The notes: generated by a model not told the origin, from the sequence alone. A stretch of 64,000 bases of DNA from an uncultured bacterium (GCA_903892035.1 CAITGV010000002.1:1714-65713), one strand, 5' to 3'; numbered from the stretch's first letter, positions 26,202 to 59,280 are shown. A program made the numbers and translations.

Positions 26202-26286
26202 AATAATAATTATTTGATTGTTTTAAAGAATATAGACTATCCATATCCAAAGAAACTTTAACATTTTTATTGATATATGTCAATTG

Positions 26287-26316
26287 AAAAAACGCCATAA
26301 TATATGGCGTTTTTTC
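26287..26316. terminator. Hairpin AAAACGCCATA-atat-ATGGCGTTTT plus T-run
   Basis: Read directly. Downstream of the 26328 gene on the minus strand. Confidence 0.5.
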
Positions 26317-26327
26317 AAGATTTTGTA

Positions 26328-26597
26328 TTACTCTTTATCCTCTTTTGCGAACATTCGCATGAGTGAACTTGATATAATTACTATAAATACAGTGATGACG
26401 ATTGCATAGATAAATTTTGGTAAAATTCCATTTCCATCAAGTGGAAAGAAATATTTTATTAGTGATGATATTGCTTCATTCCATGCAAGACCGGCAACTA
26501 ATCCTAGTGCGGTAAAAATGTAACCCATTGTACGCTCTCGGAGTTCCCTCTTTACAACACTTGCGCTTTTTTTAATATTTGATATTTTGTTTTCCAT
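26328..26597 (-). CDS. hypothetical small membrane protein
   Basis: 89 aa with two hydrophobic helices. No family. Confidence 0.4.
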   Translation of the reverse strand: MENKISNIKKSASVVKRELRERTMGYIFTALGLVAGLAWNEAISSLIKYFFPLDGNGILPKFIYAIVITVFIVIISSSLMRMFAKEDKE

Positions 26598-28501: not shown

Positions 28502-28576
28502 ATATTTTTATATATAGTTAATTAATAAAGATTGATAATTTATTTTACTCATCAAATATATCACATTTGCAGATAT

Positions 28577-28614
28577 TTTGACAAGTATTTCGTGACCGCT
28601 GAAAGCTTGTCAAA
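28577..28614. promoter_or_regulatory. Inverted repeat TTTGACAAG-N20-CTTGTCAAA in the divergent dnaK / PaaX-like promoter region
   Basis: Read directly. 9-bp perfect arms. Not a CIRCE element; no TTAGCACTC-N9-GAGTGCTAA seen. Confidence 0.35.
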
Positions 28615-28686
28615 TAGAGTATATATGATAGTCTATATGTATGTCAATCCCGTAGAGTGGATTTCCGCCACGGGACAAGGAAAACA

Positions 28687-29286
28687 ATGAAAAAACAAGA
28701 ATTTTCAAGAAAAATAATGAGGATTTTAGGAGAAAAGAAGGCGATTTCTATGCAGGAATTGACTGATAAATTATACAACCCCTCCCGACCTCCCCTTATC
28801 AAGGGAGGCCAAACTGCTATGTATTCCATTCCCCCTGATAAGGGGGACAAAGGGGGTTATAACCCTTCATATGCCATTACCCGATCACTTAAAGGTCTTA
28901 AAGACGCTGGGCTAGTAGAGCATATTTCATCGGGGCAAAATGACTATGTACGAATGACCAAAGAAGGGAAAAAGAAGGCACATAGTTTGAAATTGGAAAA
29001 TGATACAACACTTGTGGATCCATCGTGGGATGGAAAATGGAGAATTATTTTACTTGATTTACCAGAGTCACGAAAAAACGAACGCGAGAGTTTACGTTAT
29101 TTATTGAAAAAGGCAGGTTTTGTTTGTCTAAAAAATTCAGCATGGATTTCCCCCTACCCTTTTGAACATCTATTTGAGAATATCAAAAAAGATTTAGGAC
29201 TCACAACTGAGTTTATGATAATCACAACAGACAGTCTCGACGAAGACACGGAAAAAATAATTAAGGAGAACTTTTGGAAAAACTAA
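28687..29286 (+). CDS. PaaX-like winged-helix transcriptional regulator
   Basis: C-terminal WDGKWRIILLDLPESRKNERESLRYLLKKAGFVCLKNSAWISPYP matches the PaaX C-terminal domain. Start taken at ATG 28687 with AAGGA 6 nt upstream; the tracked ORF begins at an upstream GTG. Confidence 0.6.
   Translation: MKKQEFSRKIMRILGEKKAISMQELTDKLYNPSRPPLIKGGQTAMYSIPPDKGDKGGYNPSYAITRSLKGLKDAGLVEHISSGQNDYVRMTKEGKKKAHSLKLENDTTLVDPSWDGKWRIILLDLPESRKNERESLRYLLKKAGFVCLKNSAWISPYPFEHLFENIKKDLGLTTEFMIITTDSLDEDTEKIIKENFWKN
28774..28868. repeat. 84-bp GC-rich in-frame insertion flanked by imperfect direct repeats TACAACCCCTC / TATAACCCTTC, with two short GC hairpins in opposite orientation (CCTCCCC-TTATCA-AGGGAGG and CCCCC-TGATAA-GGGGG)
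   Basis: Read directly. Encodes NPSRPPLIKGGQTAMYSIPPDKGDKGGYNPS inside the wHTH region of the PaaX-like protein. Flanking YNPS ... YNPS duplication at protein level. Confidence 0.4.
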
Positions 29287-31241
29287 TTTAAAATTTTACC
29301 ATTATCGAGCTTCACAGGAGCCACACAACCCATTATGTCGTTGGCTTTTTTGGTTGTTGATTGATACCAGCGACCTGTTGCTTTATTCAAGACCCATGGA
29401 GAAATGACATCATTTAAATATTTTGTTTGAAATCTTTTAACTGCAAGGAACATTTTGTTATCAAAATATTTAGACGTAGTATCAAGTTTTTCACCCTGTG
29501 TATCATTTAAGAATTTTTTAATTTTAATTATTTCCGCACCACTCTCACCTTTTCTTACATAAGTTGTGAAATAAGGACATGATTTACCCAAAGTTGAATG
29601 AGAAGAGTCTATTGGAGATATGCTCGGGATAATTTGTTCTATTGGTTGTGGTGTTGGTAGTGGTGGATGACCGCCTCCATGTGGACACGAAACTGTTGAA
29701 AATGTTTGATCTGGACTAGAACCAGTACCAGCAGTATTTATTGCATATGATTGGTAGTGGTAAGTTGTTCCACAAGATAAACCTGAAATACTTTTTGAAA
29801 ATGATCCAGTACTATATGTACCAGTTTCAGAAACATTTGTTCCGTAACTTGCAGTATTTCCATAATTGAAACCGCGCTCTGTCGCATCCGCGCCACGAGT
29901 GTCGGTTATATTTCCATTCAAAATAGCAGAATTTTGTGTAATCGTAGAAATCGTATTTACATCAACTAGTGGAATTTGTACTAATAATCCGCCGTCATTA
30001 ACTGTCCAATTGTATGTAGTAGTTAAAATATCGTGTGAACTAGAAGCAGATGAATAATATTGACTATTGCCAGCATCAAAAGTTACATTGTTTTGTAAGG
30101 TTTGATTTGCCCATGAATTTAATATTGAAGAATAGTTTTCTGGTGAAAGTGTATCATCTGTAAACATGTCCGTCATGTCTGTAACATTTGCGACATTCCA
30201 CGTGCTCAAATCTTGATCAAACACAATGTCACCATTAAACATATTATCCATATCAGTGTCCGAAATAAGATTCCATGAGGACAAAGGCTGATTAAATACA
30301 GAATTGTAAAACATATAGCCAGTATTATTTACTTGTGACATATTCCACATATTAAGCGGTTGATCGTAAGCAGATCCATCAAACATATCATAAGCAATAT
30401 TTAATGATGAAGTGTTCCATGAATTTAAAGGTTGATCAAATAACGTAGCGCCAGAAAATAAAAAAGACATATCGACAACTTTTGAGACATTCCAGTAATC
30501 ATGATTTTGGTCATATGCGAGACTCTGATTAAAATCAGTATTTTGATAAAACATTCCGCTCATTCCCACCAAACCATCTGTATTCCACATACTTATATCT
30601 TGATTAAATGGTGACATTGCAAAAGTAAATTGCATATACTGTACATTTGATGTATTCCATAAATTTAATGGTTGATCAAAGTTTGAAGAATTGAACATGT
30701 TTGATATATCTGTGATATTAGAAATATTCCATGTATTTATACTATGATTTGAATTATCAAACGATATAACAGCATAAAACATACTATCAAGAGTTTCAAC
30801 AGATGTTAGATCTGGTGCGTCCACAGCATTTACTACTAAATTTGCACAATTATCAAATGCGTGACTCATTGAAAGCCAATGAATATTTCCCCAATTTTCA
30901 ACTGAAAGAATCTTCAACATGTCTGTTGAATCAGCAGAACCATTGAAATATATTTGCGGAAAAGTTCCTGTAATTTTTACTGTATAAATACCGCTTGATG
31001 CATATGTGTGAGTTATATTTCCAGTGACTCCGATATCTGTATTCGAATCACCCCAATCAACATCATAGTTGTAAGTTTCAAGAGGCTTTGTTGGAATAGT
31101 AATTTGTTTATTATTTGATGAACCAGGACTAATATTTGCAGTATTCCATGTCGTAATAAATTCACCTGCCGCACTAGCTTTATGATGAATAACAAATACA
31201 ATTAACAATAAAAACATTCCTATACATATCTTTTTAAGCAT
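29283..31241 (-). CDS. secreted surface protein: DUF285/BspA-type 26-residue repeats, FN3-like domain, Pro-rich linker, C-terminal PG_binding_1-like domain
   Basis: Signal peptide. Repeated F-N-Q/D-x-L/I-x-x-W-N-v-S-x-V-x-x-M-x-x-M-F units. FN3-like AILNGNITDTRG ... CGTTYHYQSYAINTAG. C-terminal GAEIIKIKKFLN ... AVKRFQTKY peptidoglycan-binding-like segment. Confidence 0.75.
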   Translation of the reverse strand: MLKKICIGMFLLLIVFVIHHKASAAGEFITTWNTANISPGSSNNKQITIPTKPLETYNYDVDWGDSNTDIGVTGNITHTYASSGIYTVKITGTFPQIYFNGSADSTDMLKILSVENWGNIHWLSMSHAFDNCANLVVNAVDAPDLTSVETLDSMFYAVISFDNSNHSINTWNISNITDISNMFNSSNFDQPLNLWNTSNVQYMQFTFAMSPFNQDISMWNTDGLVGMSGMFYQNTDFNQSLAYDQNHDYWNVSKVVDMSFLFSGATLFDQPLNSWNTSSLNIAYDMFDGSAYDQPLNMWNMSQVNNTGYMFYNSVFNQPLSSWNLISDTDMDNMFNGDIVFDQDLSTWNVANVTDMTDMFTDDTLSPENYSSILNSWANQTLQNNVTFDAGNSQYYSSASSSHDILTTTYNWTVNDGGLLVQIPLVDVNTISTITQNSAILNGNITDTRGADATERGFNYGNTASYGTNVSETGTYSTGSFSKSISGLSCGTTYHYQSYAINTAGTGSSPDQTFSTVSCPHGGGHPPLPTPQPIEQIIPSISPIDSSHSTLGKSCPYFTTYVRKGESGAEIIKIKKFLNDTQGEKLDTTSKYFDNKMFLAVKRFQTKYLNDVISPWVLNKATGRWYQSTTKKANDIMGCVAPVKLDNGKILN

Positions 31242-31258
31242 TTTAGGATTATAACATA

Positions 31259-34200
31259 TTATTTTTTACTAGTTGTAACTGTTTTAGCCAAAATTTCATT
31301 GACCACTTTTCTGGAATAAGTCCAGAAAAGACCTGTACCTTTTTTCAAACCTTGCGGTGCAAGAATTTGTTTGAAGTGATATTCCTGAAAAGCAATTAAG
31401 GCTTTTTTTGTTGCTGGACCAAACAGATTTGTCTCTTGCCCAGGCGAACCAGGTCCAGTTTTTGCTACAAGAAAACCATTTGCATTCAAGAATATTTGAA
31501 GTCTTTTTACAGAAATATCAGTTGAATTTGGTGCAAGATTTTTTGGGAATTTATAACCAGTTAAACTACCGGCAATAATTGGTTTTACGCCGTATGGATC
31601 AACCGTAGTATTATTTTGCGTATTATTTACATTTACAATTACGCACTTATTAGAACTATCTAATACATAGCCAGATTGACATGTATTTGTCGTTGTTGGA
31701 GTTGGTGTTGGAGCTACATACCAACCACCTCCGCCCCCACCTCCTCCTCCACCACCATTTGAACATGACGATGTGGTAAATGTACTATCCTCTGTTGTCA
31801 TTTGTGTGTAGCTATTTACTGCATAGCTTGCAAAGTGATATGTAGTTCCACACGATAGATTTGATAAATTTGTTGAGAATGCACCAGTACCGTATGGTCC
31901 ACTATTTTGAGTTATGGTCTGACCATAGTCTCCAGTTGTGCCCCAATAAAATCCTCGTATTGATGCATTTTGACCACCAGTGTCTGTTATGTTTCCATTT
32001 AATGTCGCTGATGTTTTTGTAACATTTGAAACTGAACTTGTAACAGTCGGACCAGTTATATCCAACATCCAAGTAAGTTGAGGGAAATCATTTGGAACAA
32101 TTCCCCACACACCATCATTAGTAAATGACCATGATGATAATGGTGCTACGTAATTATTGTATTTGAAGTAATTTGGACTATTACCATCTGTATTTACCGC
32201 ACTACAACCATTGATACTTTGACCAAATACACAGTCATTTTGACCGCTATTTGTTTTGTCGAAATAATCATTTAAAATAGTATCATCACCACTTAAATAT
32301 CCTGCAAATCCTCCATAATCTGTTGTGAAGTTCGAAACTGTTCCTACAGAGAAAAGATTTGTAAGAGAATCATTACCACTAGAATATCCCACAAATCCAC
32401 CACCAGAACCTCCTGCATCTATACCATCAACATTTCCTGTTGAGTATGAATTTGTAATTTGATCAGTACCATCTAAATATCCAATAAATCCTCCAACATA
32501 ATTTGCTCCACTTACATTTCCACGAGCATATGAATTTTCAGCATCTAGGTTACCATTTTGTGAAGCACCAACCAATCCTCCAACATATGAATTGCCATTT
32601 CCACCATGAACATTTCCAATTGCAAAATCACTATATAAGTGCGAGTCATCATCAATTCCTATTAAACCACCAGCTCCACTTTGATCATCGTTGTCTGGTG
32701 CTGTGACATTTCCAGTCGAGCTACTTTCTGCAATATAAGGACTTCCATTTATTGCTCCAATAAGACCACCGATACTATGAATAGTATCGGAAGTAGAGGC
32801 ATTAACATCACCAGTAGTGTGGAGATTTATACCAACCATTAATCCGAAACCAACAAGTCCACCAATGTCAGGATAAAAACCTCCATTAGGTCCAGCTGTG
32901 ACAGTGACACTTGAGTTCACATTTACTATTTCTGTAAAAACAGCCAATGAAGTAAGTGCGCCTACATTATGTATTGAACTAATAGTACCAGTAAGATTCA
33001 AATCATGAATATATGATTCAAATACATATTGGAATAATCCATCTCCATCTGAATTTCCAGCACTGTCATCTATTGCAAAATCAATAGTGTGTCCACCTCC
33101 ATCAAATTCTCCATGAAATCCAGTTTCTTGATTATAACTTCCAACCATTATGTTGTTTCCATTTCCAGCACAATGTAAATCATTTTCAAGTACAAAATTT
33201 GATGAAAGGAAATCATTGATATCCATAAATTGCTGACAAGTAGAAATCTGATATGGATCACCAGAAAGACCAGTACCTCCATCAAATGGGCTCAAAACAT
33301 AACCGAAGTGCAAGTAGTCTGGCACACCAACACCGAGGTATTCAACACGAATTGTATGATTACCACCATCGAGATTTACATTTATACTTGTACTACTACC
33401 TTGATAGTACCAGTGATCCAAAATTAAATTATCATCTACATAAACCCTTGCTTCATCATCTGCCCCCACAGTAAATATATAATTTCCCGCTGAAAGATCT
33501 ACAGTTTCAGTATAACGAGCAGTAAATACTGAATTTCCAACACCCACAGGATCTCCGTCATAACCCCAATCATAGTTTACTGAATCAGTATTTGTGGTTA
33601 GGTCAGCTGGTCGATCTGGGATAATTATTTCAGAATCAGATACTATTCCTGACCAGTATTCTGCAGTGTAAGCACCGATTGGGTCATCTGAGACAAGAGC
33701 GTGAAGTGTAGGCAAGTGACTTGTATTCACATCCCAAATCGGCTCACCAGAAAAGTCCCAACTTGTAAGTGGTGCATTTGAGTCATTTGCCACAAAATAA
33801 TTTGCATCACTTCCATCTGTATTTACTGCAGTACAATTTTCCATTACATCAGAGTACCCTGCGCAATCAAGTCCACCACTTGCTGTTTTGTCATAATAAT
33901 TATTAGAAGAAATAACTGGCTCGCCTTTCATATCGCCAACAAGTGCAGCATAACCAAGACTAAAACCAGAAACATTTCCTTTCACAAATGAATCCGTAAT
34001 CAATGCAGAGCTAAATGTTTCTCCGATAAGTCCACCACCTTTGTATCCTGAGTCAGTACTCACAACATTACCAGCAAAATACACACTTGAGAGAATTCCG
34101 TATTCATCCATCGAACCAATAAGTCCTCCTACATAATTTATTCCAGTAACAGTTGAAGTCGAATATGAATTACTCAATATTAGTGGTATTCCACCAGAGT

Positions 34201-44191: not shown

Positions 44192-44253
44192 AAAGTAAAT
44201 ATATTATATCAATTATGAAATGAATAACGAAATATTTTAAACTGGGGAAAACA

Positions 44254-44285
44254 AAAAAACTTTTATATTTCTATAAAAGTTTTTT
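44254..44285. terminator. AT-rich 14-bp-stem hairpin AAAAAACTTTTATA-tttc-TATAAAAGTTTTTT between the two giant genes
   Basis: Read directly. Perfect palindromic arms with T-run after the hairpin on the minus strand. Confidence 0.4.
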
Positions 44286-44307
44286 TGTTTATTCAAATTA
44301 TATAATT

Positions 44308-47300
44308 TTACTTCCCTGCCAAAATCATCTTCTTAATCAATGCTCTTGTCAGAGGTCCAAGTGCACCAGTTTGTTGAAGCTTGTTTGCTTTCTGGAATTT
44401 TTTAATAGCTGCTACTGTTTTTAGTCCCAAATAGTTGTTTTCATTTCCAGGTGAACCTGCACCAGTCTTTGAGATGATATAGCCATTTGCATTTAAGAAT
44501 ATTTGAAGGGCTTTTATAGTGAGATTTAAGTTTCCATATGAAAGTGTTTTCTTTAGAACGAGTAACGGGTTTGTATCTCCGCTACCACCATTTCCAATAG
44601 ATGAATTATTGTTTGTATTTGATGCAGGTGGTTGATTTGTTGTTGGTGGTGCAATATATCCTCCACCTCCACCACCACCGCCGTGGCTTATATTTGTATT
44701 TGTTGGACAAGTACTTGTAATAAATGTTGCATCAGGAGATACTCCAGTTCCTGCAGAATTTGTTGCATAAGCCTGATAATGGAATGTAGTACCACACGCA
44801 AGCCCTGTGATTGTTGAAGTAAATGTTCCAGTTGAAAAGCTTGCGGTAATTGTTGTTTGTGAACCATATGAATTTGTTGGTCCATAATAGAATCCATGCA
44901 CGGTAGAATTCTCGCCACCATTTGCTGTAATATTTCCATTCAATACTGCACCTGAAATTGTAACGCTCGATGATGTTGGAGTTGCAATTGTCGGTTGAGA
45001 TACTGGACCTGCAGTTACAGCTAGTGAGAATATGTCAGTATTTAATGAGTGGTGTATTTGATTTGGAACAATGTCTGCGCCATTTCCAGAGAATTTGATT
45101 ACGCGAGTGTTGTATGTATCTTGGTACACTTGATGGTCTGCATCTGTTGGATAACTTTCTGTATCGTGATATGGATAACTACTCATTTCATTGAATGGTA
45201 GTGGGAGGATAGTATCACCAAGTGGACGGCCGTAGTTCTTTTGATAGTCCCAAGATTTGTATATGAAATCACGAACTGTACCATCTGCTTGTGTTGGTAC
45301 TGCATACTTAAGTGACAATTCATCACCTTGCACCATGATGACAAATTTATTATCTACATCAGAAAGTAGCGAAGTGACATCACCATATTTTGTAGCATTA
45401 CCAGTGATTTGATTTCCAACAAATGCATTTGTAAGAGTGTCGTATACTGGTTGCTCCAATTTCATTTTTGGATCAGATGGATTTGTTAATTCTTTTTGTG
45501 ATACACCACGAAAACCAAGATTCGCAGAATATGCTGGTTCATTTGTGACAGTGACTGTTTCGTCTGGAGTGGTGTCGACTGCGAGATAGTCAATGTCCCA
45601 TTGGCGAATATTACTCATCGAAATTATTCGAATAGTATTGTCTTTGATATTCATTCCAGAAAGGTCAATGACTTTTGTCTGTGTTCCTTCAGCATTTACA
45701 AGGTTGCGAGATGCATGAGTAGTATCAGCACGAGTTGTGATAAATGGATTTTTGTCAGCAGGCATATCGACAAACACACCACTTGAATTTTTGTACTGGA
45801 ATTTATCGCGACTGATATCAGATGGCTTTGTTGGATATGGACCTTCCTTACCACGCTTTATAACAAGCTTGAGATTTGCAGGGGTTGTAGAATCATTTGA
45901 AAGTTTTACCTGCAAATATGATGGAGTTGCATTTGGAGTCACAGTACTGTGCCAATACATATTGTCATCTTGAGCTACAAGGTTTTTTACATCGCGACCA
46001 TTTTCATCTGTGACTGACACTGGAGCAGAGGCATTTTTTGAGACTGTGTGAATCGTGCCATTGTCACGATAGTCTGGATACACATTTACATTTGCACTGT
46101 GGTCAATGATTTGCAACTGTGCCTGGTCGTAGTAATCTACTTCGTTCAATTCTGTTGTATTTTTTATATCGTAGTATGTCTCACCATTTACTGTATGAGG
46201 TACAAGTGAACCGCTTGGCATTTGTGCGTAAGCTAGGGGTTGCGCATATGTACTATTTGCATTTGGGTCCTGATACCAAGGATTTGCTTTCCAAAGAGCT
46301 CCACTCATTCCTAGGTCTGGTGCTCCAGAAGTTGAAACGTCTGTTATGAATTTATATTCGTGACCATCCCATGTAAACAAATATGGACACGATGCTGAGA
46401 ATGGACCTTGGAGTGGGCTTGTGTTCGTATGATTATCAGAAGTTGTAGAGCGAACCATGAAATATAGAGATGAGGCAGACATACCACCGTTATTTAAATT
46501 GTGAGAAGTTGTTGAATCACCTAAAGCAGAAAGATACCCTGCATTGAAATCATTAATGTAATATTTTAGCGTGAATACATTATTTGTTGGATTAATTGAA
46601 TATATCGAACCTTGCCCACCGTACGTAGTTCCGTATAAGGTTCCGTTTGATTCGACGAATGGAGCATTAGGATTTCTACCATGCGTACCGTCAAAGTCAT
46701 GAATGTCGGTGAATGTAGAATTTGAAGGATTGAACGAAAATACGGTACCTTGATTATTTACCCCTCCATACACTGTTGTACTAAACAAGATTCCATTTAC
46801 ATTTAATAGCGAAGCCTGGGGAGAGTTTCCATCCGTACCATTAAAATTATGAATATCAGTGAATGTAGAATTGGAAGTATTGAATGAAAAGATGATACCT
46901 TGACCATTTGCTCCGCCACTTTGTGTTGTGCCATACAGAATTCCACCTACATCCGTAAATCCTGCATAAGGATATGCTCCACTTGTATTGTCAAAGTCGT
47001 GAAGTTTTGTGAATGCATTTCCATTTGTGGTATCGACAGAGAAGATAGTGCCGTAGCCGTTTGTACCTGCATTTACAGTTCCACCATAGAGAACTCCATT
47101 TACATTTAGAAGTTCGGTATAAGGATTTGCACCATTGGTCGAATCGAAATCATGAATGTCTGTGTATGTTGAATTTGAGGGATTGAATGAGTATATTGCA
47201 CCATAATTATTTGAGCTAGCATACGCAGAACCATATAGGATTCCACCCACATCAACGAGAGCATTGTAAGGATTTGCACCGTGAGTGTTGTCGAAGTCAT

Positions 47301-50300
47301 AAACATCGGTATATGTATTATTTGAAGGGTCAAAAGAGAAAATAGTACCATAACCATATGCTCCACCATATACAGTATTACCATACAATATTCCACTTAC
47401 ATTTATCATTGTAGCCTGAGAATTTGATCCGTGAGTTAGATCAAAATTGTGCACTACAGTATATGTTGAATTTGCAGGATTGAAAGAGAAAATAGTACCG
47501 TAACCATTTGGTCCCTGATATTCTGTCGTTCCATAAAAAATTCCATTAACTTCAACCAAGGCATCTCGTGGATTCGCTCCATCGTGATGACTTGTCGCAT
47601 CAAGAAATTCTTGCCATGTCGCATGAGGACGACTGTCATAAACTACTTCACTATTTGAAGCAACGTCTGTATTCCAATTAAAATTGCCAATACCATCAAA
47701 ATAAATATTTGATATCAATGGCTCTCCTGCTTTCTCTGCCTTTGCCCACACCCAAGTATTACCAGAGCCGTCATTGTATTTGGTTCCTGTCTTTGTGCCA
47801 GATAGTGAACAGTCAGATGGTGAACCAGTACAACCTACTTGAGATTGAAGAGTTTCCCATGCACTTGTATCGAAGTTCCAGATATATAGTGATGTGTGCA
47901 TTGTATTATTTGCATCACCGTGACCTGTCCAGTTGATTGTGTATTTTGGATTGACTATACCTGTTAGGTCTTTTGATATTTTGTAGACTTGAGAATCGTA
48001 ACCTCCACCAGAGAGTGCTGTGATCCAGTAGGTACCATCTTTTGTAAATGTTTTACTTACGTTACCTGAGAGAACTCCTGGATTTGTAGGAGAAACTTCC
48101 ACATCGTGACTTTCATAACCTGTGATTGTGACAGCGTGGTTACTTGTGCCAAAAGCTTGGAGTGTTGGAAGAGTGCCTGTGTTTGTTTGCCAAACATCTG
48201 TGAAATTCCAAGCTGAAAGTGGTGCTTGTGAGTGAGTATTTTGGAAGTAGGTTGAGTTTGGTGAGTCGGTGGTGTTGACGGCGTTACAGCCGGAAATATC
48301 AGACGTGCCAACACAACCAGTTTGACCTGAAGCTATTTGGTCGTAGAAATTGTTGGTATAATGATTGCCACTGTCGTAGTCGTGACCAGCAAATCCACCG
48401 TAGCTACTGTCGAAATGAATTACAGAACCAGTTGAGAACGAATTTACATATGTATCATCACCATTTTGACCTGCGAACCCTCCACCACTATCTCCACCGC
48501 TAACTCCATCTACATTTCCAGATGCGTATGTATTTGTGTATGTATTATAACTTCCACCATATCCAATAAACCCACCTGCTTCATATGAACTCGTCACATT
48601 CCCTGATGCATATACATCTTGGAAATTTACATGATCAGCATAACCAATAAAACCACCGCCACCATATGTTATCGACACATTACCGGATGCATAGCTTTGT
48701 AAAATACTTGTATTGTCTGCGCCACCAATAAAGCCTCCCGCAGTATCCATATCATTACCTACCGTTACATTTCCAGTTGCAAAACTTGTATCTATAACTG
48801 AATTTGAATCATAACCAATAAATCCACCAATATCGTCCGTAGAACTGATTACATTTCCAGTGGCACTACTTCCTGAAACTACGTCATTAATAGTAGATCC
48901 AATAAGTCCACCTGTATAAGAAGTTCCACCTGTTACAATAACCGAAGAATTCACATTCGAAATTATTGAATATTGTGAATATCCAGAAAGAGCTCCGACT
49001 TGCTCGTAAAGTTCCGTTATATTTCCTGTAATATTTAGATTCTGAATTATTGCATTATTTGTCTGATTAAAAAGACCAGCACTACTGTAATTATCATTTA
49101 CATCGTTTATTGCAATTTGTATTGTGTGTCCTTGTCCGTCAAAACTTCCAGAAAACGGAGTGCTAACACCAACCATTATATTGTTTGCTTCACCACGACA
49201 ATCCAAATCTGTGGTGAGAACATAGTCACCAGAAAGATTGTTGTTGATGTTTTCGAAATCTGCACAAGTTGCAATTGAGGATTGGACTGTAGTTTGAGCA
49301 ACATCATCAGAAGTTAGATTGTGAAGCGTTGGCAAGTGACCTCCGTCTGCATCCCAAATGTTTTGGAAATTCCATTGATCGAGTGGAGCGTTTGTAAAGT
49401 TGCCTTTGAAATAGTTTGGTGAGTGTCCGTCGGTGTTGACTGCGGTACAGCCAGAAATATCAACACCTGAAACACAACCCGGTATACCACTTTTTGTTCG
49501 GTCATAAAAATTATTAACTGAATCATAATCACCAAAGTCACCACCAGCAAATGATCCACCTGTATCAAGATTTGTTAGTGTTCCAAAAGAAAATGAATTT
49601 GATATATTATTCAAATCTGATAGACCTATAAAGCCTCCAATATCAGAACCAGCACTTATTCCGTCTACATTTCCAGAAGAATATGAATTGGTTATTGTGC
49701 TATCTTGAATGTATCCACCAAAACCACCAGCACCACTACTACCACTAACATTACCTGTGGAATAAGAATTTGAAATAATTGTAGGGGTGTTTGTAATATA
49801 AGTTTGTCCAATCAAGCCACCCACATAACTAGTTCCAACAACAGATGCACCTGCAAAATAGTTTTGGTCTAGCGTTGCATTTAATAAATTACTTCCGCTT
49901 TCATCATCAGAATAATAATACCCAATAAGTCCACCAGCACTGTTAGCTCCAGAAGTTACTGTTGATGTAGAATAATTTTTATTAAAGTTAAAATTTAATC
50001 CAACCGATCCCAAAGTACTAAGTTCTAAATCACCAATCAGTCCACCCACTCTCGAATCGACTCCGCTGACTGTCGCGTCTGAATGGTTAGTAGAAACTAC
50101 TACATTTGTATCATAAGTACCATCTGCCCATATATCCATATAACCAGAGAGACCTCCAACACCACTATAACCATGTATCAAACCAGAACTATAATTATTT
50201 AATATATTTATATTTAAATCAGCAGTTTGAATATAATTGATTACATCAAAGTCTCCAAAAATTCCACCAACATTACTACCATCTGATGTTATATTTCCAG

Positions 50301-51174
50301 AGAAGTGATTACCTGTAAATGTCATATTTATAGTGTCATCAGTTTCTCCATTGTTGACCAATCCCACAATACCTCCGACATTACTATGGTCAGACGTAAT
50401 ATCACTTTCTGCATATGAATTGGTTAAAGTAAAACTAGCATTATTATTTACGTACAAATTACCTATAAGCCCACCCACATTATTATCAAATGAACTTATG
50501 GCTCCTGTGGTATGAAAACTATTTGTTATATTTACAGCAGTGGTACTACTTTCAGATTGTTGATAAGAATCATATATTTGCCCAATTAGTCCTCCCACAC
50601 TACCGTAACCTGAAATAATTCCCGTAGTTGAACAGCCTGTAATGTTAACAATATTATTATTTGTATTCGTTAAGTAACTAATAAGACCACCGACATAAGG
50701 TGCATCTGTGGTTGATACATTTGCTGTCACGTGATCATTTGTAAGCGTAAGTCCTCCATCATTTACAGTAGCAATAAGTCCACCGGTGTTGGACATACCA
50801 CCACCCACAATACTTCCAGCAACGGTAAGGTTTGTAATTGTCGCACCATTTGTCTGACCAAACAGACTAGCGTACCAATCTCTAATATTTATATCAACAG
50901 TAACCGTATGATTATTACCATCAAATGTTCCCGTAAACGGGTCGGTTGTTGCAACTTCAATATCATTGCCTAAATCCTCACCAGCTGGCCCACAATTTAA
51001 ATCATTTGCAAGAATATAACTGCCAGCTAAATCATTATTAATATTTTGGAAATCGTTACAAGTAGAAATAGAAATCGGCCCATCAGCCTTTGTGCTATTA
51101 ATATTAAATAAAACAAAACCAATTATTGATAAAAATGTGATAAACAAAACAGATGAGAATTTTTTGTAATTCAT
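44308..51174 (-). CDS. giant (2288 aa) cell-surface protein: signal peptide, GLUG-motif modules, 7-blade beta-propeller of about 48-aa repeats (GloVer/TIGR03803-like), further beta-rich region, FN3-like domain, Gly run, PG_binding_1-like C-terminus
   Basis: Uninterrupted 6.9-kb ORF. Seven repeats of pattern G-x-N-P-x-x-x-L-v-x-V-x-G-i-L-Y-G-T-T-x-x-G-G-x-x-G-x-G-T-I-F-S-F-N-P-S-N-S-T-Y-T-D-I-H-D-F (about 46570-47583). C-terminal LNGNITANGG ... CGTTFHYQAYATNSAG and KALQIFLNANGYIISKTGAGSPG. Confidence 0.85.
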   Translation of the reverse strand: MNYKKFSSVLFITFLSIIGFVLFNINSTKADGPISISTCNDFQNINNDLAGSYILANDLNCGPAGEDLGNDIEVATTDPFTGTFDGNNHTVTVDINIRDWYASLFGQTNGATITNLTVAGSIVGGGMSNTGGLIATVNDGGLTLTNDHVTANVSTTDAPYVGGLISYLTNTNNNIVNITGCSTTGIISGYGSVGGLIGQIYDSYQQSESSTTAVNITNSFHTTGAISSFDNNVGGLIGNLYVNNNASFTLTNSYAESDITSDHSNVGGIVGLVNNGETDDTINMTFTGNHFSGNITSDGSNVGGIFGDFDVINYIQTADLNINILNNYSSGLIHGYSGVGGLSGYMDIWADGTYDTNVVVSTNHSDATVSGVDSRVGGLIGDLELSTLGSVGLNFNFNKNYSTSTVTSGANSAGGLIGYYYSDDESGSNLLNATLDQNYFAGASVVGTSYVGGLIGQTYITNTPTIISNSYSTGNVSGSSGAGGFGGYIQDSTITNSYSSGNVDGISAGSDIGGFIGLSDLNNISNSFSFGTLTNLDTGGSFAGGDFGDYDSVNNFYDRTKSGIPGCVSGVDISGCTAVNTDGHSPNYFKGNFTNAPLDQWNFQNIWDADGGHLPTLHNLTSDDVAQTTVQSSIATCADFENINNNLSGDYVLTTDLDCRGEANNIMVGVSTPFSGSFDGQGHTIQIAINDVNDNYSSAGLFNQTNNAIIQNLNITGNITELYEQVGALSGYSQYSIISNVNSSVIVTGGTSYTGGLIGSTINDVVSGSSATGNVISSTDDIGGFIGYDSNSVIDTSFATGNVTVGNDMDTAGGFIGGADNTSILQSYASGNVSITYGGGGFIGYADHVNFQDVYASGNVTSSYEAGGFIGYGGSYNTYTNTYASGNVDGVSGGDSGGGFAGQNGDDTYVNSFSTGSVIHFDSSYGGFAGHDYDSGNHYTNNFYDQIASGQTGCVGTSDISGCNAVNTTDSPNSTYFQNTHSQAPLSAWNFTDVWQTNTGTLPTLQAFGTSNHAVTITGYESHDVEVSPTNPGVLSGNVSKTFTKDGTYWITALSGGGYDSQVYKISKDLTGIVNPKYTINWTGHGDANNTMHTSLYIWNFDTSAWETLQSQVGCTGSPSDCSLSGTKTGTKYNDGSGNTWVWAKAEKAGEPLISNIYFDGIGNFNWNTDVASNSEVVYDSRPHATWQEFLDATSHHDGANPRDALVEVNGIFYGTTEYQGPNGYGTIFSFNPANSTYTVVHNFDLTHGSNSQATMINVSGILYGNTVYGGAYGYGTIFSFDPSNNTYTDVYDFDNTHGANPYNALVDVGGILYGSAYASSNNYGAIYSFNPSNSTYTDIHDFDSTNGANPYTELLNVNGVLYGGTVNAGTNGYGTIFSVDTTNGNAFTKLHDFDNTSGAYPYAGFTDVGGILYGTTQSGGANGQGIIFSFNTSNSTFTDIHNFNGTDGNSPQASLLNVNGILFSTTVYGGVNNQGTVFSFNPSNSTFTDIHDFDGTHGRNPNAPFVESNGTLYGTTYGGQGSIYSINPTNNVFTLKYYINDFNAGYLSALGDSTTSHNLNNGGMSASSLYFMVRSTTSDNHTNTSPLQGPFSASCPYLFTWDGHEYKFITDVSTSGAPDLGMSGALWKANPWYQDPNANSTYAQPLAYAQMPSGSLVPHTVNGETYYDIKNTTELNEVDYYDQAQLQIIDHSANVNVYPDYRDNGTIHTVSKNASAPVSVTDENGRDVKNLVAQDDNMYWHSTVTPNATPSYLQVKLSNDSTTPANLKLVIKRGKEGPYPTKPSDISRDKFQYKNSSGVFVDMPADKNPFITTRADTTHASRNLVNAEGTQTKVIDLSGMNIKDNTIRIISMSNIRQWDIDYLAVDTTPDETVTVTNEPAYSANLGFRGVSQKELTNPSDPKMKLEQPVYDTLTNAFVGNQITGNATKYGDVTSLLSDVDNKFVIMVQGDELSLKYAVPTQADGTVRDFIYKSWDYQKNYGRPLGDTILPLPFNEMSSYPYHDTESYPTDADHQVYQDTYNTRVIKFSGNGADIVPNQIHHSLNTDIFSLAVTAGPVSQPTIATPTSSSVTISGAVLNGNITANGGENSTVHGFYYGPTNSYGSQTTITASFSTGTFTSTITGLACGTTFHYQAYATNSAGTGVSPDATFITSTCPTNTNISHGGGGGGGGYIAPPTTNQPPASNTNNNSSIGNGGSGDTNPLLVLKKTLSYGNLNLTIKALQIFLNANGYIISKTGAGSPGNENNYLGLKTVAAIKKFQKANKLQQTGALGPLTRALIKKMILAGK

Positions 51175-51198
51175 AGTAAATATAGTATACCACTTTTA

Positions 51199-51218
51199 CC
51201 CCCCCCAAAAAAAAAAAA
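51199..51218. repeat. Homopolymer tract C8 A12 (G8/T12 on the coding strand) 25 bp upstream of the 2288-aa gene start
   Basis: Read directly: ccccccccaaaaaaaaaaaa. Confidence 0.9.
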
Positions 51219-51245
51219 TTTATGCAATATTTTCTGTGGATAACA

Positions 51246-51288
51246 AATAGCGTGGCGGGGTACTCCCCGCCACGCTATTTGTTTTTTT
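51246..51288 (+). terminator. Strong GC-rich hairpin AAATAGCGTGGCGGGG-tact-CCCCGCCACGCTATTT followed by TTTTTTT on the plus strand only
   Basis: Read directly. 16-bp perfect stem. The U-tract is on the plus strand although both flanking genes are minus-strand. Confidence 0.55.
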
Positions 51289-51306
51289 ATTTAATATAGA
51301 ATTAAA

Positions 51307-51951
51307 TTATTTCTTTTTAGGAGTTGGTATTACACTAATCATTTTTGCACCAGTGATATTTCCATTTGCATCTTTTGTTCCACCAATAACCATTACATTT
51401 GCACCAACAGCTAAGTCAGACAAACTTGCACCCTTTTTACCAGACATACTTACTTTTGCTTTTGCATCAGGAGTAACTGTAATTGACTTTGATGTAGAAG
51501 TTGCAGTTTTTCCATGACCAGTTCTTTCACTTGTAGAAATTGTAAGTGTGCCATTGTCATTTGCTGTTACAGTACCACGAACAGGTCCCATTGTATTTTT
51601 TGCTAAATCACCACCTTTTGGTGCAGGCATTGAAATGACACGAGTTGCTGAAATATTGTTACCCGAGATTGTTCCTTGAACTGCAATTCTTGCACCAGAT
51701 GTAATATCTGCAGCTGATTTTGTTTTATTACCAACAAACTTTGCATTTGAAGTATCTACTGTATAAGTAGTTGGAGTTTTTCCGATTGTTGTAATTGTAA
51801 TACTTGCTCCACTTATTGCTGTCACATTACCCATTACCATTGGGACGTGATTTTTTGCTATTTGTTGAGTATCTGTCGCAGCGTGTGCAACACCACCCAA
51901 AAACATAAATGACAAAACTAAAAACGAAATTGCTAAATATTTTTTTGACAT
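51307..51951 (-). CDS. hypothetical secreted beta-rich protein (DUF5666-like), upstream neighbour of the giant genes
   Basis: Signal peptide MSKKYLAISFLVLSFMFLGGVAHA. T/S/G-rich repeated beta-strand-like segments (GNVTAISGASITITT, GTVTANDNGTLTIST). Confidence 0.45.
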   Translation of the reverse strand: MSKKYLAISFLVLSFMFLGGVAHAATDTQQIAKNHVPMVMGNVTAISGASITITTIGKTPTTYTVDTSNAKFVGNKTKSAADITSGARIAVQGTISGNNISATRVISMPAPKGGDLAKNTMGPVRGTVTANDNGTLTISTSERTGHGKTATSTSKSITVTPDAKAKVSMSGKKGASLSDLAVGANVMVIGGTKDANGNITGAKMISVIPTPKKK

Positions 51952-52061: not shown

Positions 52062-52673
52062 CTATTTTATAGCAAAAACTTTTACACCAGCAGGGCGGAT
52101 TATGCGAGCTTGCCCTGAAGGACTTGAAGGGTCGCCGAGTTTATAACCAGACTGAACAATCACAGCAATAGTATGTTCTTTTTCTTTGTCGTCTGTTTCA
52201 ATAGTCTCCATTGATTGATGTAAATTTGGATCAAAAGTGTCCCCAACTTTTGTTGTCATTTGTGAGACATTGTAGTCAGCTAAAACTTTTAAAATTTGCT
52301 GATGAATATATTCCACACCGATACGCCAATTTTTATCAACTTTCTCCCATGCTTCACGGTTTGAAAAAGCCATATCATACGAATCAAGCGCAGGTAAAAG
52401 ATCTAAAATAAAATTTTCTTCAGCGTAACTACGGACACCTTTCAATCTTTCAGCTTCATCTTTTTTGTAATTTATAAAATCTGCGCGTTCACGCTGAAGT
52501 GCTGTGAGATATTCACCTTCCTTATTTTTTGCTTCTTTTAAATCTTTTCGTACTTTCTTTAGAGTTGCTTTTAAATCTTCTTCACCGTCAGCATTATAGA
52601 CGAATTCAACAACATCTTCTTCTTCTGGAATTATATCTTCAGTTTTTATTTCTTCTTCATTCATAACGTGCAT
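52062..52673 (-). CDS. grpE: nucleotide exchange factor GrpE
   Basis: Acidic N-terminus. Coiled region LTALQRERADFINYKKDEAERL. C-terminal beta domain. 203 aa. Confidence 0.9.
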   Translation of the reverse strand: MHVMNEEEIKTEDIIPEEEDVVEFVYNADGEEDLKATLKKVRKDLKEAKNKEGEYLTALQRERADFINYKKDEAERLKGVRSYAEENFILDLLPALDSYDMAFSNREAWEKVDKNWRIGVEYIHQQILKVLADYNVSQMTTKVGDTFDPNLHQSMETIETDDKEKEHTIAVIVQSGYKLGDPSSPSGQARIIRPAGVKVFAIK

Positions 52674-52690
52674 TATAGCGGAAATTTACT

Positions 52691-52718
52691 AAAAAAACAA
52701 AAAACTCCTTTCGGAGTT
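52691..52718 (-). terminator. Hairpin AACTCC-tttc-GGAGTT followed by T-run on the minus strand, downstream of rpsI
   Basis: Read directly. Confidence 0.5.
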
Positions 52719-52732
52719 CTCTGCTTTTTGTT

Positions 52733-59257: not shown

Positions 59258-59280
59258 TTGTTTATTATACTATAAATTTT

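What the first reader, a model, noticed from the sequence alone, without database searches (positions are those of the whole stretch)
28687..51951. A 23-kb surface-protein block wedged between grpE and dnaK
grpE (52062-52673) and dnaK (26603-28501) lie on the same strand in the conserved grpE-then-dnaK order, but about 23.4 kb of non-housekeeping genes separates them. The intervening block holds a PaaX-like regulator, three paralogous secreted mega-proteins (652, 4310 and 2288 aa, about 21.7 kb of coding sequence, a third of the window) and a small secreted beta-rich protein. The whole block is bounded by intrinsic-terminator-like hairpins. This looks like an accessory adhesin/host-interaction island inserted into a conserved chaperone operon. 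It is the most distinctive system in the window.
Basis: partly seen in the sequence, partly recalled or inferred. Interest (0 to 1): 0.8.

Follow-up and report, generated by a model that had tools for sequence, protein, structure and literature searches.

The report
Giant surface-protein genes beside dnaK regulator
In an uncultured ultra-small (Patescibacteria/CPR) bacterium, 22.7 kb of genes for giant cell-surface proteins fill a spot between grpE and dnaK that varies from species to species. The small "PaaX-like" gene next to them is not cargo: it is a conserved, apparently undescribed candidate regulator of dnaK with its own 30-bp palindromic DNA site.

Summary
grpE and dnaK lie on one strand, 23.6 kb apart, separated by genes of 214, 2288, 4310 and 652 aa plus an antisense PaaX_M-domain gene.

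- In 70 of 71 related Paceibacteria genomes and 54 of 54 metagenome loci, grpE and dnaK are never adjacent. An antisense PaaX-like gene always sits between them.
- A conserved 30-bp palindrome lies at the dnaK promoter. So the regulator is resident, and dnaK has its own promoter.
- The real variable slot lies between grpE and the regulator's 3' end. It spans 5-8447 bp in relatives and 22.7 kb here, the largest seen.
- Cargo elsewhere is heterogeneous. Only the closest relative shares a DUF5666 protein and a 715-aa PG-binding protein.
- Codon usage is native. There are no mobility genes, tRNA or att-like repeats. This argues for in-situ expansion rather than a foreign island.

The giant proteins carry signal-peptide-like N-termini. 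They contain about 12-13 beta-helix GLUG modules (AF2 pLDDT 94, fold of the IgA1-protease N-domain), lectin-type domains and a shared Fn3-like plus peptidoglycan-binding tail. No catalytic motif was found, so they are probably host-attachment fibres.

A T12G8 tract sits in the promoter of the 2288-aa gene and may act as a phase switch.

The parts
52062..52673 (-). grpE, the left anchor of the variable slot. It has its own upstream terminator and a TATAAT box.
   Evidence: Pfam GrpE E 9e-34. The rpsI-grpE spacer holds a stem AACTCC-GAAA-GGAGTT followed by a T-run, then TATAAT 7 nt before the ATG.
51307..51951 (-). 214-aa secreted DUF5666-like protein, the first cargo gene. It is possibly co-transcribed with grpE.
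   Evidence: PF18914 E 2.8e-5, below the Pfam cut-off. N-terminus MSKKYLAISFLVLSFMFLGGVAHA|ATD. It is 30% identical to the DUF5666 protein in the same slot of L002. The 110-nt grpE spacer shows no significant hairpin (z -1.2).
51242..51283 (.). 19-bp GC-rich palindromic hairpin between the DUF5666 gene and the 2288-aa gene; terminator-like.
   Evidence: MFE -47.6 kcal/mol for the spacer, z -6.0.
51199..51218 (-). T12G8 homopolymer tract immediately upstream of the TGGTATACT extended -10 box of the 2288-aa gene. Candidate slipped-strand phase-variation switch.
   Evidence: It is the only long homopolymer run (>=9 A/T or >=7 G/C) in the 64-kb window. Length variation could not be tested.
44308..51174 (-). 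2288-aa surface protein: signal peptide, 3 GLUG beta-helix modules, 7 GloVer repeats, an unassigned region, an Fn3-like domain, a Gly-run and PG_binding_1.
   Evidence: Pfam PG_binding_1 E 4.8e-11 and M26_N E 5e-10. TIGR03803 GloVer E 1e-67 with 7 stretches. Module HMM hits at residues 32-347, 292-625 and 633-1011.
44249..44290 (-). 19-bp A/U hairpin followed by UUUU; an intrinsic-terminator-like site after the 2288-aa gene.
   Evidence: z -5.2.
31259..44191 (-). 4310-aa surface protein: signal peptide, Pro/Thr-rich linker, about 9-10 GLUG beta-helix modules, an F5/8 type C-like domain, a PA14 domain, an Fn3-like domain, a Gly-run and a PG_binding_1-like tail.
   Evidence: Pfam Glug 128.5 bits, M26_N E 3.8e-16, PA14 E 7e-10, PG_binding_1 22.5 bits against a cut-off of 23. 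Module map. AF2 model of residues 955-1366 has pLDDT 94.2 and is all-beta. Best PDB matches are the IgA1-protease N-terminal beta-helix structures 7uvk, 6xja and 3n6z. No HExxH and no LPxTG motif.
29283..31241 (-). 652-aa surface protein: signal peptide, PKD-like domain, PARCEL/DUF285 repeats, then the same Fn3-like plus PG-binding-like tail. It starts 17 bp after the 4310-aa gene and is probably co-transcribed with it.
   Evidence: DUF285 E 1e-56. PARCEL-repeat NCBIfam hits. The tail is homologous to the other two proteins and 61% identical to the tail of the L002 715-aa protein.
28687..29286 (+). Resident 'mini-PaaX' regulator (winged HTH plus a Cas2-like PaaX_M domain, with no PaaX C-terminal domain). 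It is divergent from dnaK and NOT part of the cargo.
   Evidence: PaaX_M E 7e-21. TIGR02277 scores 38.5 bits against a cut-off of 264.55. AF2 pLDDT 79.8. Best PDB matches are PaaX 8a39, 3l09 and 3kfw. Present antisense between grpE and dnaK in 70/71 and 54/54 loci.
28581..28610 (.). 30-bp palindrome (family consensus ACAAGTATTTCGCG-GT-CGCGAAATACTTGT), the candidate operator at the dnaK promoter.
   Evidence: Exactly one copy per locus in 72 loci, always at the dnaK-operon promoter. One-sided changes are common and compensatory ones rare, so it behaves as a DNA site rather than an RNA helix. All 63 full palindromes found in a metagenome-wide scan lie beside paaX-like/dnaK.
28555..28647 (-). dnaK promoter region. 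P1 is TTGACA-N18-TATACT, upstream of the palindrome. P2 has its -35 box TTGTCA inside the right arm of the palindrome, then N18, then (TG)ATATATT.
   Evidence: 11/12 and 10/12 matches. The same layout is conserved across relatives.
26603..28501 (-). dnaK, the right anchor.
   Evidence: HSP70 E 1e-241.
26284..26597 (-). DUF5654 small membrane protein gene (26328-26597) and the canonical terminator (26284-26318) that ends the dnaK unit.
   Evidence: z -7.0.

Best explanation
The window comes from a Paceibacteria-type (Nomurabacteria-like) Patescibacteria genome.

In this lineage grpE and dnaK are separate transcription units. grpE follows the S13-S11-S4-rpoA-L17-L13-S9 cluster. dnaK is transcribed from its own promoter(s), which carry a 30-bp palindrome. 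A small PaaX-like winged-helix gene is transcribed divergently from that promoter. I infer that this protein binds the palindrome and represses dnaK, working like HrcA/CIRCE or HspR/HAIR but with unrelated parts.

The DNA between the 3' end of grpE and the 3' end of the regulator is a convergent-end region where accessory genes accumulate and turn over.

In this species and its nearest relative the slot holds secreted wall-associated proteins. Here they have expanded by gene duplication and module accretion into 22.7 kb (29283-51951). The products are:
- a DUF5666 protein;
- two giant proteins built of serial ~400-aa beta-helix GLUG modules with lectin-type domains (F5/8-C, PA14, GloVer);
- a PARCEL-repeat protein.

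The three large proteins all end in a common Fn3-like plus peptidoglycan-binding tail.

Inferred mechanism: Sec export, retention on peptidoglycan (their own, or alternatively the host's), and display of long rigid fibres that bind host-cell surface glycans, as expected for an episymbiont. The 2288-aa gene may be switched on and off by a T12G8 tract in its promoter.

Shown here: the gene order and its conservation, the domain content, the folds, the native codon usage and the operator's exclusivity to this locus. Inferred: regulator-operator binding, secretion, adhesion and phase variation.
For: Architecture:
- An antisense PaaX-like gene lies between grpE and dnaK in 70/71 GTDB-representative relatives. 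The grpE-dnaK gap is 635-9306 bp (median 1961). The grpE-to-regulator slot is 5-8447 bp.
- The same holds in 54/54 metagenome loci and.

Operator:
- There is one palindrome per locus. It stays with dnaK even when a TerC gene intervenes, as in L059 and L081.
- It shows no RNA-type covariation.
- All 63 genuine copies in the metagenome scan lie at this locus.
- There is no CIRCE in 1.42 Mb of related loci.

Regulator fold.

Cargo variability.

Shared ancestry with L002.

Native origin:
- Codon usage matches the flanks.
- There are no long identical or flanking repeats.
- There is no tRNA or known RNA at the edges.

Protein nature.

Precedents: giant surface proteins in CPR Vampirococcus (PMC8080830), and secreted PG-binding/PKD/galactose-binding proteins proposed for host attachment in Paceibacteria (PMC10936435).
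Against: - There are no expression, proteomic or binding data.
- Signal peptides were judged by eye, not with a dedicated predictor.
- PG_binding_1 is just under the Pfam cut-off in the 4310-aa protein (22.5 against 23). In the 652-aa protein it is inferred only by homology.
- Only one close relative (GrpE 77% identical) is available, so the timing and direction of the expansion are weakly constrained. Transfer from a closely related CPR with the same codon usage cannot be excluded.
- Gene order differs from L002: there the DUF5666 gene is next to the regulator, here it is next to grpE.
- Whether hrcA or another heat-shock regulator exists elsewhere in these genomes was not testable.
- The regulator-palindrome link rests on co-localisation alone.
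Confidence: 0.72

Rival explanations
1. The whole 23-kb block, including the PaaX-like regulator, is a horizontally acquired adhesin island that split a formerly contiguous grpE-dnaK operon.
For: The block is absent from 69 of 70 relatives and is by far the largest interval seen. The cargo is of an accessory type.
Against: - The regulator is present at this position in 70/71 and 54/54 loci, and grpE-dnaK is never contiguous.
- Codon usage is indistinguishable from the flanks.
- There are no integrase, transposase, tRNA or att-like repeats.
- The DUF5666 protein and a PG-binding protein are shared with the nearest relative.
- The giant genes are paralogues of each other.
Confidence: 0.08
2. The giant proteins are not adhesins. 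They would be enzymes or weapons that attack the host envelope (polysaccharide lyase, depolymerase or protease-like), with the PG-binding domain targeting cell wall.
For: - The beta-helix fold also matches phage tailspike depolymerases and PL6 lyases at lower rank.
- PG-binding domains are typical of wall hydrolases (PMC10936435).
- Giant genes of predatory Omnitrophota have been linked to cell-wall degradation (10.1101/2023.11.21.568195).
Against: - No catalytic domain or HExxH motif was found.
- The best structural matches are the non-catalytic N-terminal domain of IgA1 proteases.
- The lyase and tailspike matches are weak: E 5.5e-3 to 8.8e-3 for CBA120 TSP3, E>=0.015 for the other tailspike and lyase matches, with TM about 0.2-0.33.
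- The lectin-type domains (PA14, F5/8-C) point to binding.
Confidence: 0.13
3. The position next to grpE/dnaK is functional. Large, aggregation-prone secreted proteins would be co-expressed with the chaperones that keep them export-competent.
For: - No terminator separates grpE from the DUF5666 gene.
- In many relatives large paralogous arrays also sit directly downstream of grpE on the same strand.
Against: - Cargo in relatives is functionally heterogeneous: CutA1, DUF2238, SET, glyoxalase and Zn-finger proteins. In some species the slot is empty (gap 635-680 bp).
- Strong hairpins and separate promoter-like sites isolate the giant genes.
- The palindrome controls only the dnaK side.
Confidence: 0.07
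4. The block is an assembly artefact or chimeric contig that joins grpE and dnaK regions to unrelated giant genes.
For: Repetitive giant genes are prone to misassembly.
Against: - The same proteins and junctions occur on 6 or more contigs, from ENA and Logan assemblies of different runs.
- The repeats are only 60-87% identical at the DNA level.
- The reading frames are uninterrupted over 12.9 and 6.9 kb.
Confidence: 0.02

Closest known systems
Giant surface proteins of CPR episymbionts and predators (e.g. Vampirococcus lugosii, 1392-4163 aa; PMC8080830), and secreted PG-binding/PKD/galactose-binding proteins of Paceibacteria (PMC10936435)
   Same: Same superphylum and small genome. Very large secreted proteins with adhesion- or lectin-type domains, proposed to mediate host attachment. 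A PG-binding domain is present.
   Different: The domain make-up here is serial GLUG beta-helix modules plus GloVer and PARCEL repeats, not WD40, integrin or DUF11. The three large genes are clustered in one hypervariable slot and share one C-terminal tail. No experimental data exist for this organism.
GLUG-motif / Peptidase_M26_N beta-helix domain of streptococcal IgA1 proteases (PDB 6xja, 7uvk, 3n6z)
   Same: Same fold and Pfam families.
   Different: There is no M26 catalytic domain, no HExxH and no LPxTG. The module is repeated about 9-10 and 3 times to make fibre-like proteins. The anchor is PG_binding_1 instead of sortase, SLH or T9SS as in other GLUG proteins.
Tandem giant extracellular protein genes Giant1-5 of Apilactobacillus kunkeei (PMC12863079)
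   Same: Several consecutive genes for 3000-8000-aa extracellular proteins take up a large share of a small genome. They arose by duplication within a symbiont lineage.
   Different: Unrelated organism and domains. No relation to a chaperone locus.
HrcA/CIRCE and HspR/HAIR heat-shock repressor systems
   Same: A dedicated repressor gene sits at the dnaK locus with an inverted-repeat operator that overlaps the chaperone promoter. It works like these systems (inferred).
   Different: The protein family differs (wHTH plus Cas2-like PaaX_M). The operator differs (14-2-14 palindrome ACAAGTATTTCGCG-GT-CGCGAAATACTTGT). No CIRCE is present. The 4 HAIR-like matches (<=2 mismatches) in 1.42 Mb lie away from dnaK. 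The site is found only at dnaK, not at other genes, in the scan performed.
PaaX, repressor of phenylacetate catabolism (E. coli; PDB 8a39)
   Same: The winged-HTH and central Cas2-like domains are homologous.
   Different: It is about 100 aa shorter and lacks the PaaX C-terminal domain. It fails the PaaX equivalog model (38.5 against 264.55 bits). No paa genes are nearby. It is locked to dnaK.

Membership tests
Horizontally acquired genomic island | Composition or codon usage differs from the host genome | tested here: not met
   The RSCU distance of 400-codon chunks is 0.103-0.114, against 0.112 for flanking genes. GC is 0.33-0.38 in the block against 0.30-0.44 in the flanks.
Horizontally acquired genomic island | Mobility genes, a tRNA target or flanking direct repeats | tested here: not met
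   No integrase or transposase domains in the block ORFs. The only tRNA is at 6053-6125. No flanking repeats. The nearest Y1-transposase-like ORF is 8.6 kb from the block.
Horizontally acquired genomic island | Variable presence among relatives | tested here: met
   The surface-protein cargo is absent from all relatives except L002.
Contiguous grpE-dnaK(-dnaJ) heat-shock operon with CIRCE/HrcA | grpE and dnaK adjacent in one transcription unit in this lineage | tested here: not met
   An antisense gene separates them in 70/71 and 54/54 loci. The minimum gap is 635 bp.
Contiguous grpE-dnaK(-dnaJ) heat-shock operon with CIRCE/HrcA | A CIRCE element (TTAGCACTC-N9-GAGTGCTAA) upstream | tested here: not met
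   No match with 3 or fewer mismatches in 1.42 Mb of the window plus related loci.
GLUG motif-containing surface protein | GLUG / M26_N repeats above the family threshold | tested here: met
   The 4310-aa protein scores Glug 128.5 bits (cut-off 20.5) and M26_N 59.5 (cut-off 27.7). The 2288-aa protein scores M26_N 39.5 and matches the module HMM at E 2e-105.
GLUG motif-containing surface protein | Right-handed beta-helix fold of the module | tested here: met
   AF2 pLDDT 94.2 and pTM 0.92. Foldseek matches to 7uvk, 6xja and 3n6z at E 2e-6 to 1.5e-5.
GLUG motif-containing surface protein | Export signal and cell-surface anchor | tested here: inconclusive
   The N-terminal n/h/c regions were seen by eye. 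PG_binding_1 is clear in the 2288-aa protein (43.1 against 23), borderline in the 4310-aa protein (22.5 against 23), and inferred by homology only in the 652-aa protein. No dedicated signal-peptide predictor was available.
PARCEL/DUF285 repeat surface protein | DUF285 repeats above threshold | tested here: met
   The 652-aa protein scores DUF285 190.2 bits (cut-off 25) in 3 stretches, plus NCBIfam PARCEL hits.
PaaX family (phenylacetate repressor) | Passes the PaaX equivalog model with three-domain architecture | tested here: not met
   TIGR02277 scores 38.5 bits against a cut-off of 264.55. Only the wHTH and PaaX_M domains are present, in 199 aa.
PaaX family (phenylacetate repressor) | Genomic association with paa catabolic genes | tested here: not met
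   The neighbours are grpE and dnaK in all loci examined.
Divergently encoded local repressor with palindromic operator | A conserved palindrome between the regulator and the target promoter, specific to that locus | tested here: met
   One copy per locus in 72 loci. All 63 genuine copies in the metagenome scan are at this locus.
Divergently encoded local repressor with palindromic operator | The protein binds the site and represses transcription | not testable with these tools
   This needs EMSA or footprinting and in vivo or in vitro transcription.
Phase-variable promoter (homopolymer tract) | A homopolymer tract within the promoter core | tested here: met
   The T12G8 tract abuts the extended -10 box of the 2288-aa gene and is unique in the window.
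Phase-variable promoter (homopolymer tract) | Tract length varies within or between populations | not testable with these tools
   The only retrievable independent contig (L010) is identical to the window. Other contigs were collapsed by the look-up.

The most novel reading that the evidence does not exclude
The ~180-200-aa 'mini-PaaX' protein and its 30-bp palindrome would form a previously undescribed, lineage-wide dnaK (heat-shock) repressor system of Paceibacteria-type CPR bacteria. It would fill the role of HrcA/CIRCE or HspR/HAIR. The convergent-end region beside it would be a hotspot where host-interaction genes are born and expanded, here possibly under homopolymer-tract phase variation.
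Probability: 0.45. Interest if true: 0.65.

Novelty: new variant of a known kind. Interest (0 to 1): 0.45.

Why it matters
Almost nothing is known about gene regulation or host attachment in Patescibacteria.

The locus offers two things.
- A concrete, testable regulator-operator pair for the central chaperone dnaK. It is conserved across more than 120 independent loci.
- A clear case of how an ultra-small symbiont builds a large surface-protein arsenal: 7250 aa in three genes, made by in-situ duplication in a tolerated intergenic slot rather than by importing an island.

It also corrects a tempting misreading. A 'split operon' here is the ancestral state, not an insertion scar.

Tried and rejected
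- A homology search with the full 4310-aa protein timed out. It was repeated with the C-terminal 671 aa. The closest hits are only about 30-50% identical GLUG/PG-binding proteins, with no close orthologue outside the species.
- CIRCE and HAIR scans were negative at dnaK.
- Reading the palindrome as an RNA hairpin or thermometer was rejected. Of 13 pairs, most show frequent one-sided breaks (up to 29/63) and few compensatory changes.
- A search for further regulon members found none. A metagenome scan with the half-site plus centre gave 120 loci. Of these, 57 were chance hits in GC 0.46-0.70 genomes with random right arms, and all 63 true sites were at paaX-like/dnaK.
- Compositional foreignness was not found.
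- Att-like or long identical repeats were not found.
- A tRNA or Rfam element at the edges was not found.
- Sequence search of the PDB with the regulator gave nothing. Only the fold search linked it to PaaX.
- Tract-length variation could not be assessed.
- Literature searches for PaaX/dnaK or HrcA in Patescibacteria returned nothing relevant.

Full report

The ORF list reproduces every gene at the stated coordinates. Pfam confirms DnaK (26603-28501, minus strand; HSP70 E 1e-241) and GrpE (52062-52673, minus strand; E 9e-34). Between them lie:
- a plus-strand PaaX_M-domain protein (E 7e-21);
- minus-strand ORFs of 652, 4310 and 2288 aa;
- a 214-aa DUF5666-like ORF.

The grpE stop and the dnaK start are 23,560 bp apart. 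The three large ORFs total 7250 aa, or 21.75 kb.

The flanks are housekeeping genes. Upstream of grpE lie S13-S11-S4-RpoA-L17-L13-S9. Downstream of dnaK lie DUF5654, an ExoX-like exonuclease, YqeY, Obg and GatB. GrpE homologues carry Nomurabacteria, Paceibacterota and Minisyncoccia names, so the organism is a Paceibacteria-type CPR bacterium.

The same proteins and both junctions of the block recur on several contigs from independent assemblies. The arrangement is therefore not an assembly artefact.

**2. Two details of the observation need correcting.**

First, paralogy is partial.
- The 2288- and 4310-aa proteins share about 400-aa modules (40% identity over 563 aa, E 4e-80).
- The 652-aa protein shares only the last ~200-250 residues with them (E 5e-24 and 2e-27). 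Its body is made of PARCEL/DUF285 repeats.

Second, the block is not bounded by terminators.
- The grpE-DUF5666 spacer folds no better than shuffled sequence (z -1.2).
- The 652-aa gene overlaps the 3' end of the PaaX-like gene by 4 bp.
- Strong hairpins lie inside the block, at 51242-51283 (19 bp, z -6.0) and at 44249-44290 (19 A/U pairs plus a U-run, z -5.2).
- Others lie outside it: after rpsI (52703-52718 plus a T-run) and after DUF5654 (26284-26318).

**3. Comparison with relatives.**

Look-ups of GrpE homologues gave these layouts:
- Closest relative (L002; GrpE 77% and DnaK 95% identical): grpE, a 715-aa PG-binding protein, DUF5666, antisense PaaX_M, two small genes, dnaK.
- A 69%-identical relative: grpE, a 104-aa gene, DUF2238, antisense PaaX_M, a 95-aa gene, dnaK.
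- A 67%-identical relative: grpE, antisense PaaX_M, dnaK, with nothing else.

I then scanned one genome per species with a GrpE profile, which gave 80 loci, and mapped the genes with tblastn.
- In 70 of 71 informative, non-redundant loci a PaaX-like gene lies antisense between grpE and dnaK. The one exception contains an assembly gap.
- The grpE-dnaK gap ranges from 635 to 9306 bp (median 1961).
- The part between grpE and the regulator ("slot A") is 5-8447 bp.
- The part between the regulator and dnaK ("slot B") is 93-1981 bp.
- One further locus (L086) has five tandem genes of 557-628 aa filling most of the 10 kb after grpE, without reaching dnaK.

The window's 23.6 kb is the extreme of a continuous distribution. 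grpE and dnaK are never adjacent in this lineage.

**4. What fills the slot elsewhere.**

The 137 ORFs in the interval of 64 relatives are heterogeneous:
- tandem ~570-aa treble-clef zinc-finger proteins;
- ABC transporters;
- CutA1 (8), DUF2238 (4), low-molecular-weight phosphatase (4);
- SET, glyoxalase, TerC/DUF475, one DnaJ-domain protein and one cold-shock protein.

PG_binding_1 occurs only in L002. DUF5666 occurs in three loci. GLUG and DUF285 occur in none.

The L002 715-aa protein is homologous to three window proteins:
- the GloVer region of the 2288-aa protein (39% over 314 aa);
- the Fn3-like domain of the 4310-aa protein (51% over 81 aa);
- the tail of the 652-aa protein (61% over 98 aa).

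The two DUF5666 proteins are 30% identical. Surface-protein cargo therefore predates the split of these two species. It then grew here by duplication and domain shuffling.

**5. Foreign or native?**

All tests point to a native origin.
- Synonymous codon usage in the block equals that of the flanks. The RSCU distance of 400-codon chunks is 0.103 and 0.114, against a mean of 0.112 for flanking genes of similar size.
- GC content is unremarkable.
- There are no integrase or transposase domains in the block.
- There is no tRNA or known RNA at the edges.
- There are no flanking or long near-identical repeats. Module DNA is only 60-87% identical over short stretches.

This argues for old, in-situ expansion rather than a recently imported island.

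**6. What the proteins are.**

All four cargo proteins begin with a basic stretch, then a hydrophobic stretch, then an Ala-X-Ala-like site.

A profile built from five modules maps about 9-10 GLUG-type modules in the 4310-aa protein and 3 in the 2288-aa protein.

An AlphaFold model of one module (residues 955-1366) is very confident (pLDDT 94.2, pTM 0.92) and all-beta.
- Its best PDB matches are the non-catalytic beta-helix N-domains of M26 IgA1 proteases (7uvk, 6xja/6xjb, 3n6z; E 2e-6 to 1.5e-5).
- Phage tailspikes and PL6 lyases match only weakly: E 5.5e-3 to 8.8e-3 for CBA120 TSP3, and E>=0.015 for the remaining tailspike and lyase matches.

Additional domains are F5/8 type C (weak), PA14 (E 7e-10), seven GloVer repeats (E 1e-67), PKD-like and PARCEL repeats.

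The three large proteins share a tail made of an Fn3-like domain, a glycine run and a PG_binding_1-like domain. That domain is clear in the 2288-aa protein, borderline in the 4310-aa protein and inferred by homology in the 652-aa protein.

There is no HExxH and no LPxTG motif.

GLUG proteins elsewhere use other anchors (T9SS, SLH). The PG_binding_1 combination recurs in Patescibacteria.

The most economical reading is fibre-like, wall-associated, glycan-binding adhesins. This fits published proposals for CPR giant proteins (PMC8080830) and for Paceibacteria PG-binding secreted proteins (PMC10936435).

Whether the PG-binding tail holds the protein on the organism's own wall or grips the host's wall is open.

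**7. The resident regulator and the dnaK promoter.**

The PaaX-like protein is one of a tight, highly conserved family (60-78% identity across the clade), typically about 177-200 aa. Alignment with homologues places its start at ATG 28687.
- It fails the PaaX equivalog model (38.5 against 264.55 bits).
- It lacks the third PaaX domain.
- Its model (pLDDT 79.8) is a winged HTH plus a ferredoxin-like (Cas2-like) domain.
- The best PDB matches are PaaX 8a39 and the PaaX-like 3l09 and 3kfw.
- A profile search of 1.84 billion representative proteins finds 1139 clusters at E<=1e-10, mostly 180-200 aa long.

Upstream of dnaK I found a 30-bp palindrome with consensus ACAAGTATTTCGCG-GT-CGCGAAATACTTGT. 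The window copy is at 28581-28610.
- It occurs exactly once per locus in 72 loci.
- It always lies between the regulator and the first gene of the dnaK unit.
- It remains with dnaK when another gene intervenes.
- A TTGACA-N17/18-TATACT promoter precedes it. In many loci a second promoter uses the right arm (TTGTCA) as its -35 box.
- Pair statistics show frequent one-sided changes and few compensatory ones. It therefore behaves as a protein-binding DNA site, not an RNA helix.

CIRCE is absent from 1.42 Mb of related loci, and HAIR-like matches are not near dnaK.

A metagenome-wide scan for the half-site plus centre returned 120 loci.
- Of these, 57 are chance hits in high-GC genomes with random right arms.
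- All 63 full palindromes lie beside paaX-like/dnaK.
- In all 54 loci that hold both genes, the site lies between the divergent pair.

I infer a dedicated dnaK repressor-operator pair. Binding, the signal sensed and heat responsiveness are untested. I found no paper that describes it.

**8. Transcription units (inferred).**

- rps/rpoA cluster, then a terminator.
- P-grpE (TATAAT 7 nt before the ATG), possibly reading through into DUF5666, then the hairpin at 51242-51283.
- P-2288, where a T12G8 tract abuts a TGGTATACT extended -10 box, then the hairpin at 44249-44290.
- P-4310 followed by the 652-aa gene (17-bp spacer), converging on the regulator's 3' end.
- The regulator and dnaK-DUF5654, divergent from the palindrome region, ending at the terminator at 26284-26318.

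The T12G8 tract is the only long homopolymer run in 64 kb. It resembles known phase-variable promoters. Length heterogeneity could not be examined.

**9. Verdict.**

It is wrong on the key evolutionary claim. No conserved operon was split, the regulator is not cargo and there is no sign of foreign insertion.

The surface-protein cluster is a new member of known kinds. The conserved grpE - variable slot - mini-PaaX - palindrome - dnaK architecture appears to be undescribed, and it is the more interesting result.

Noticed in passing
window 28555-29286; loci L002-L090 and L093-L212: A conserved 'mini-PaaX' gene is divergent from dnaK. A 30-bp palindrome (ACAAGTATTTCGCG-GT-CGCGAAATACTTGT) sits at the dnaK promoter in more than 120 independent loci. 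This is a candidate new dnaK repressor-operator pair, and it matches neither CIRCE nor HAIR.
   Followed up: yes
window 51199-51218: A T12G8 homopolymer tract (read on the minus strand) lies directly upstream of the extended -10 box of the 2288-aa surface-protein gene. It is the only such run in the window and may be a phase-variation switch.
   Followed up: partly
L086 5039-14148; also L055, L065, L066, L068, L071, L076, L083, L087: Tandem arrays of 2-5 paralogous ~560-630-aa proteins lie directly downstream of grpE in many relatives. Each has an N-terminal treble-clef zinc-finger motif (CQNCKKDFTIEPDDFSFYEKIKVPPPTFCPECR). An ABC transporter sometimes accompanies them. Function is unknown.
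   Followed up: partly
L005 12277-12564; L017 12119-12400; L018 11214-11489; L022, L027, L063, L065: A conserved ~90-aa protein (MVDPKKVDFNQLPKKFCDGALGAF...; weak DUF3467 hit) sits between the palindrome and dnaK in several relatives. It is probably co-transcribed with dnaK and could be a small co-chaperone or operon member.
   Followed up: no
L030 12722-13138; L043 12870-13292; L049 13737-14156; L056 12999-13412: A low-molecular-weight phosphatase (ArsC-like, LMWPc) gene lies between the palindrome and dnaK in four relatives.
   Followed up: no
window 28777-28863 (regulator residues ~31-59): The window's regulator carries an insertion of about 25-30 residues inside the winged-helix domain, relative to the family consensus. 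The insertion is modelled with pLDDT below 50.
   Followed up: partly
window 43887-44056: A 12-nt-periodic repeat encodes a Pro/Thr-rich linker just after the signal peptide of the 4310-aa protein. It is a possible length-variable stalk.
   Followed up: no
window 52674-52732: grpE is preceded by a canonical terminator after rpsI and by a TATAAT box only 7 nt from its ATG. This suggests a separate, nearly leaderless grpE transcript.
   Followed up: partly
window 19385-20017 (+): An IS200/Y1-transposase-like ORF (PF01797, E 5.5e-8) lies among housekeeping genes, 6.6 kb downstream of the 3' end of dnaK. A similar gene interrupts the regulator-dnaK spacer in L038 (3149-3883).
   Followed up: no
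window 56800-61005: Three consecutive genes (422, 398 and 574 aa) have no Pfam or NCBIfam match. They lie between alaS and the infA/rpsM cluster. Counterparts of two of them, without Pfam hits and of similar size, occupy the same position in L002, L005 and L007.
   Followed up: no
window 44000-47000: GC skew turns positive over the C-terminal half of the 2288-aa gene, while the rest of the minus-strand giant genes show strongly negative skew. This is probably an amino-acid composition effect, but it was not examined.
   Followed up: no
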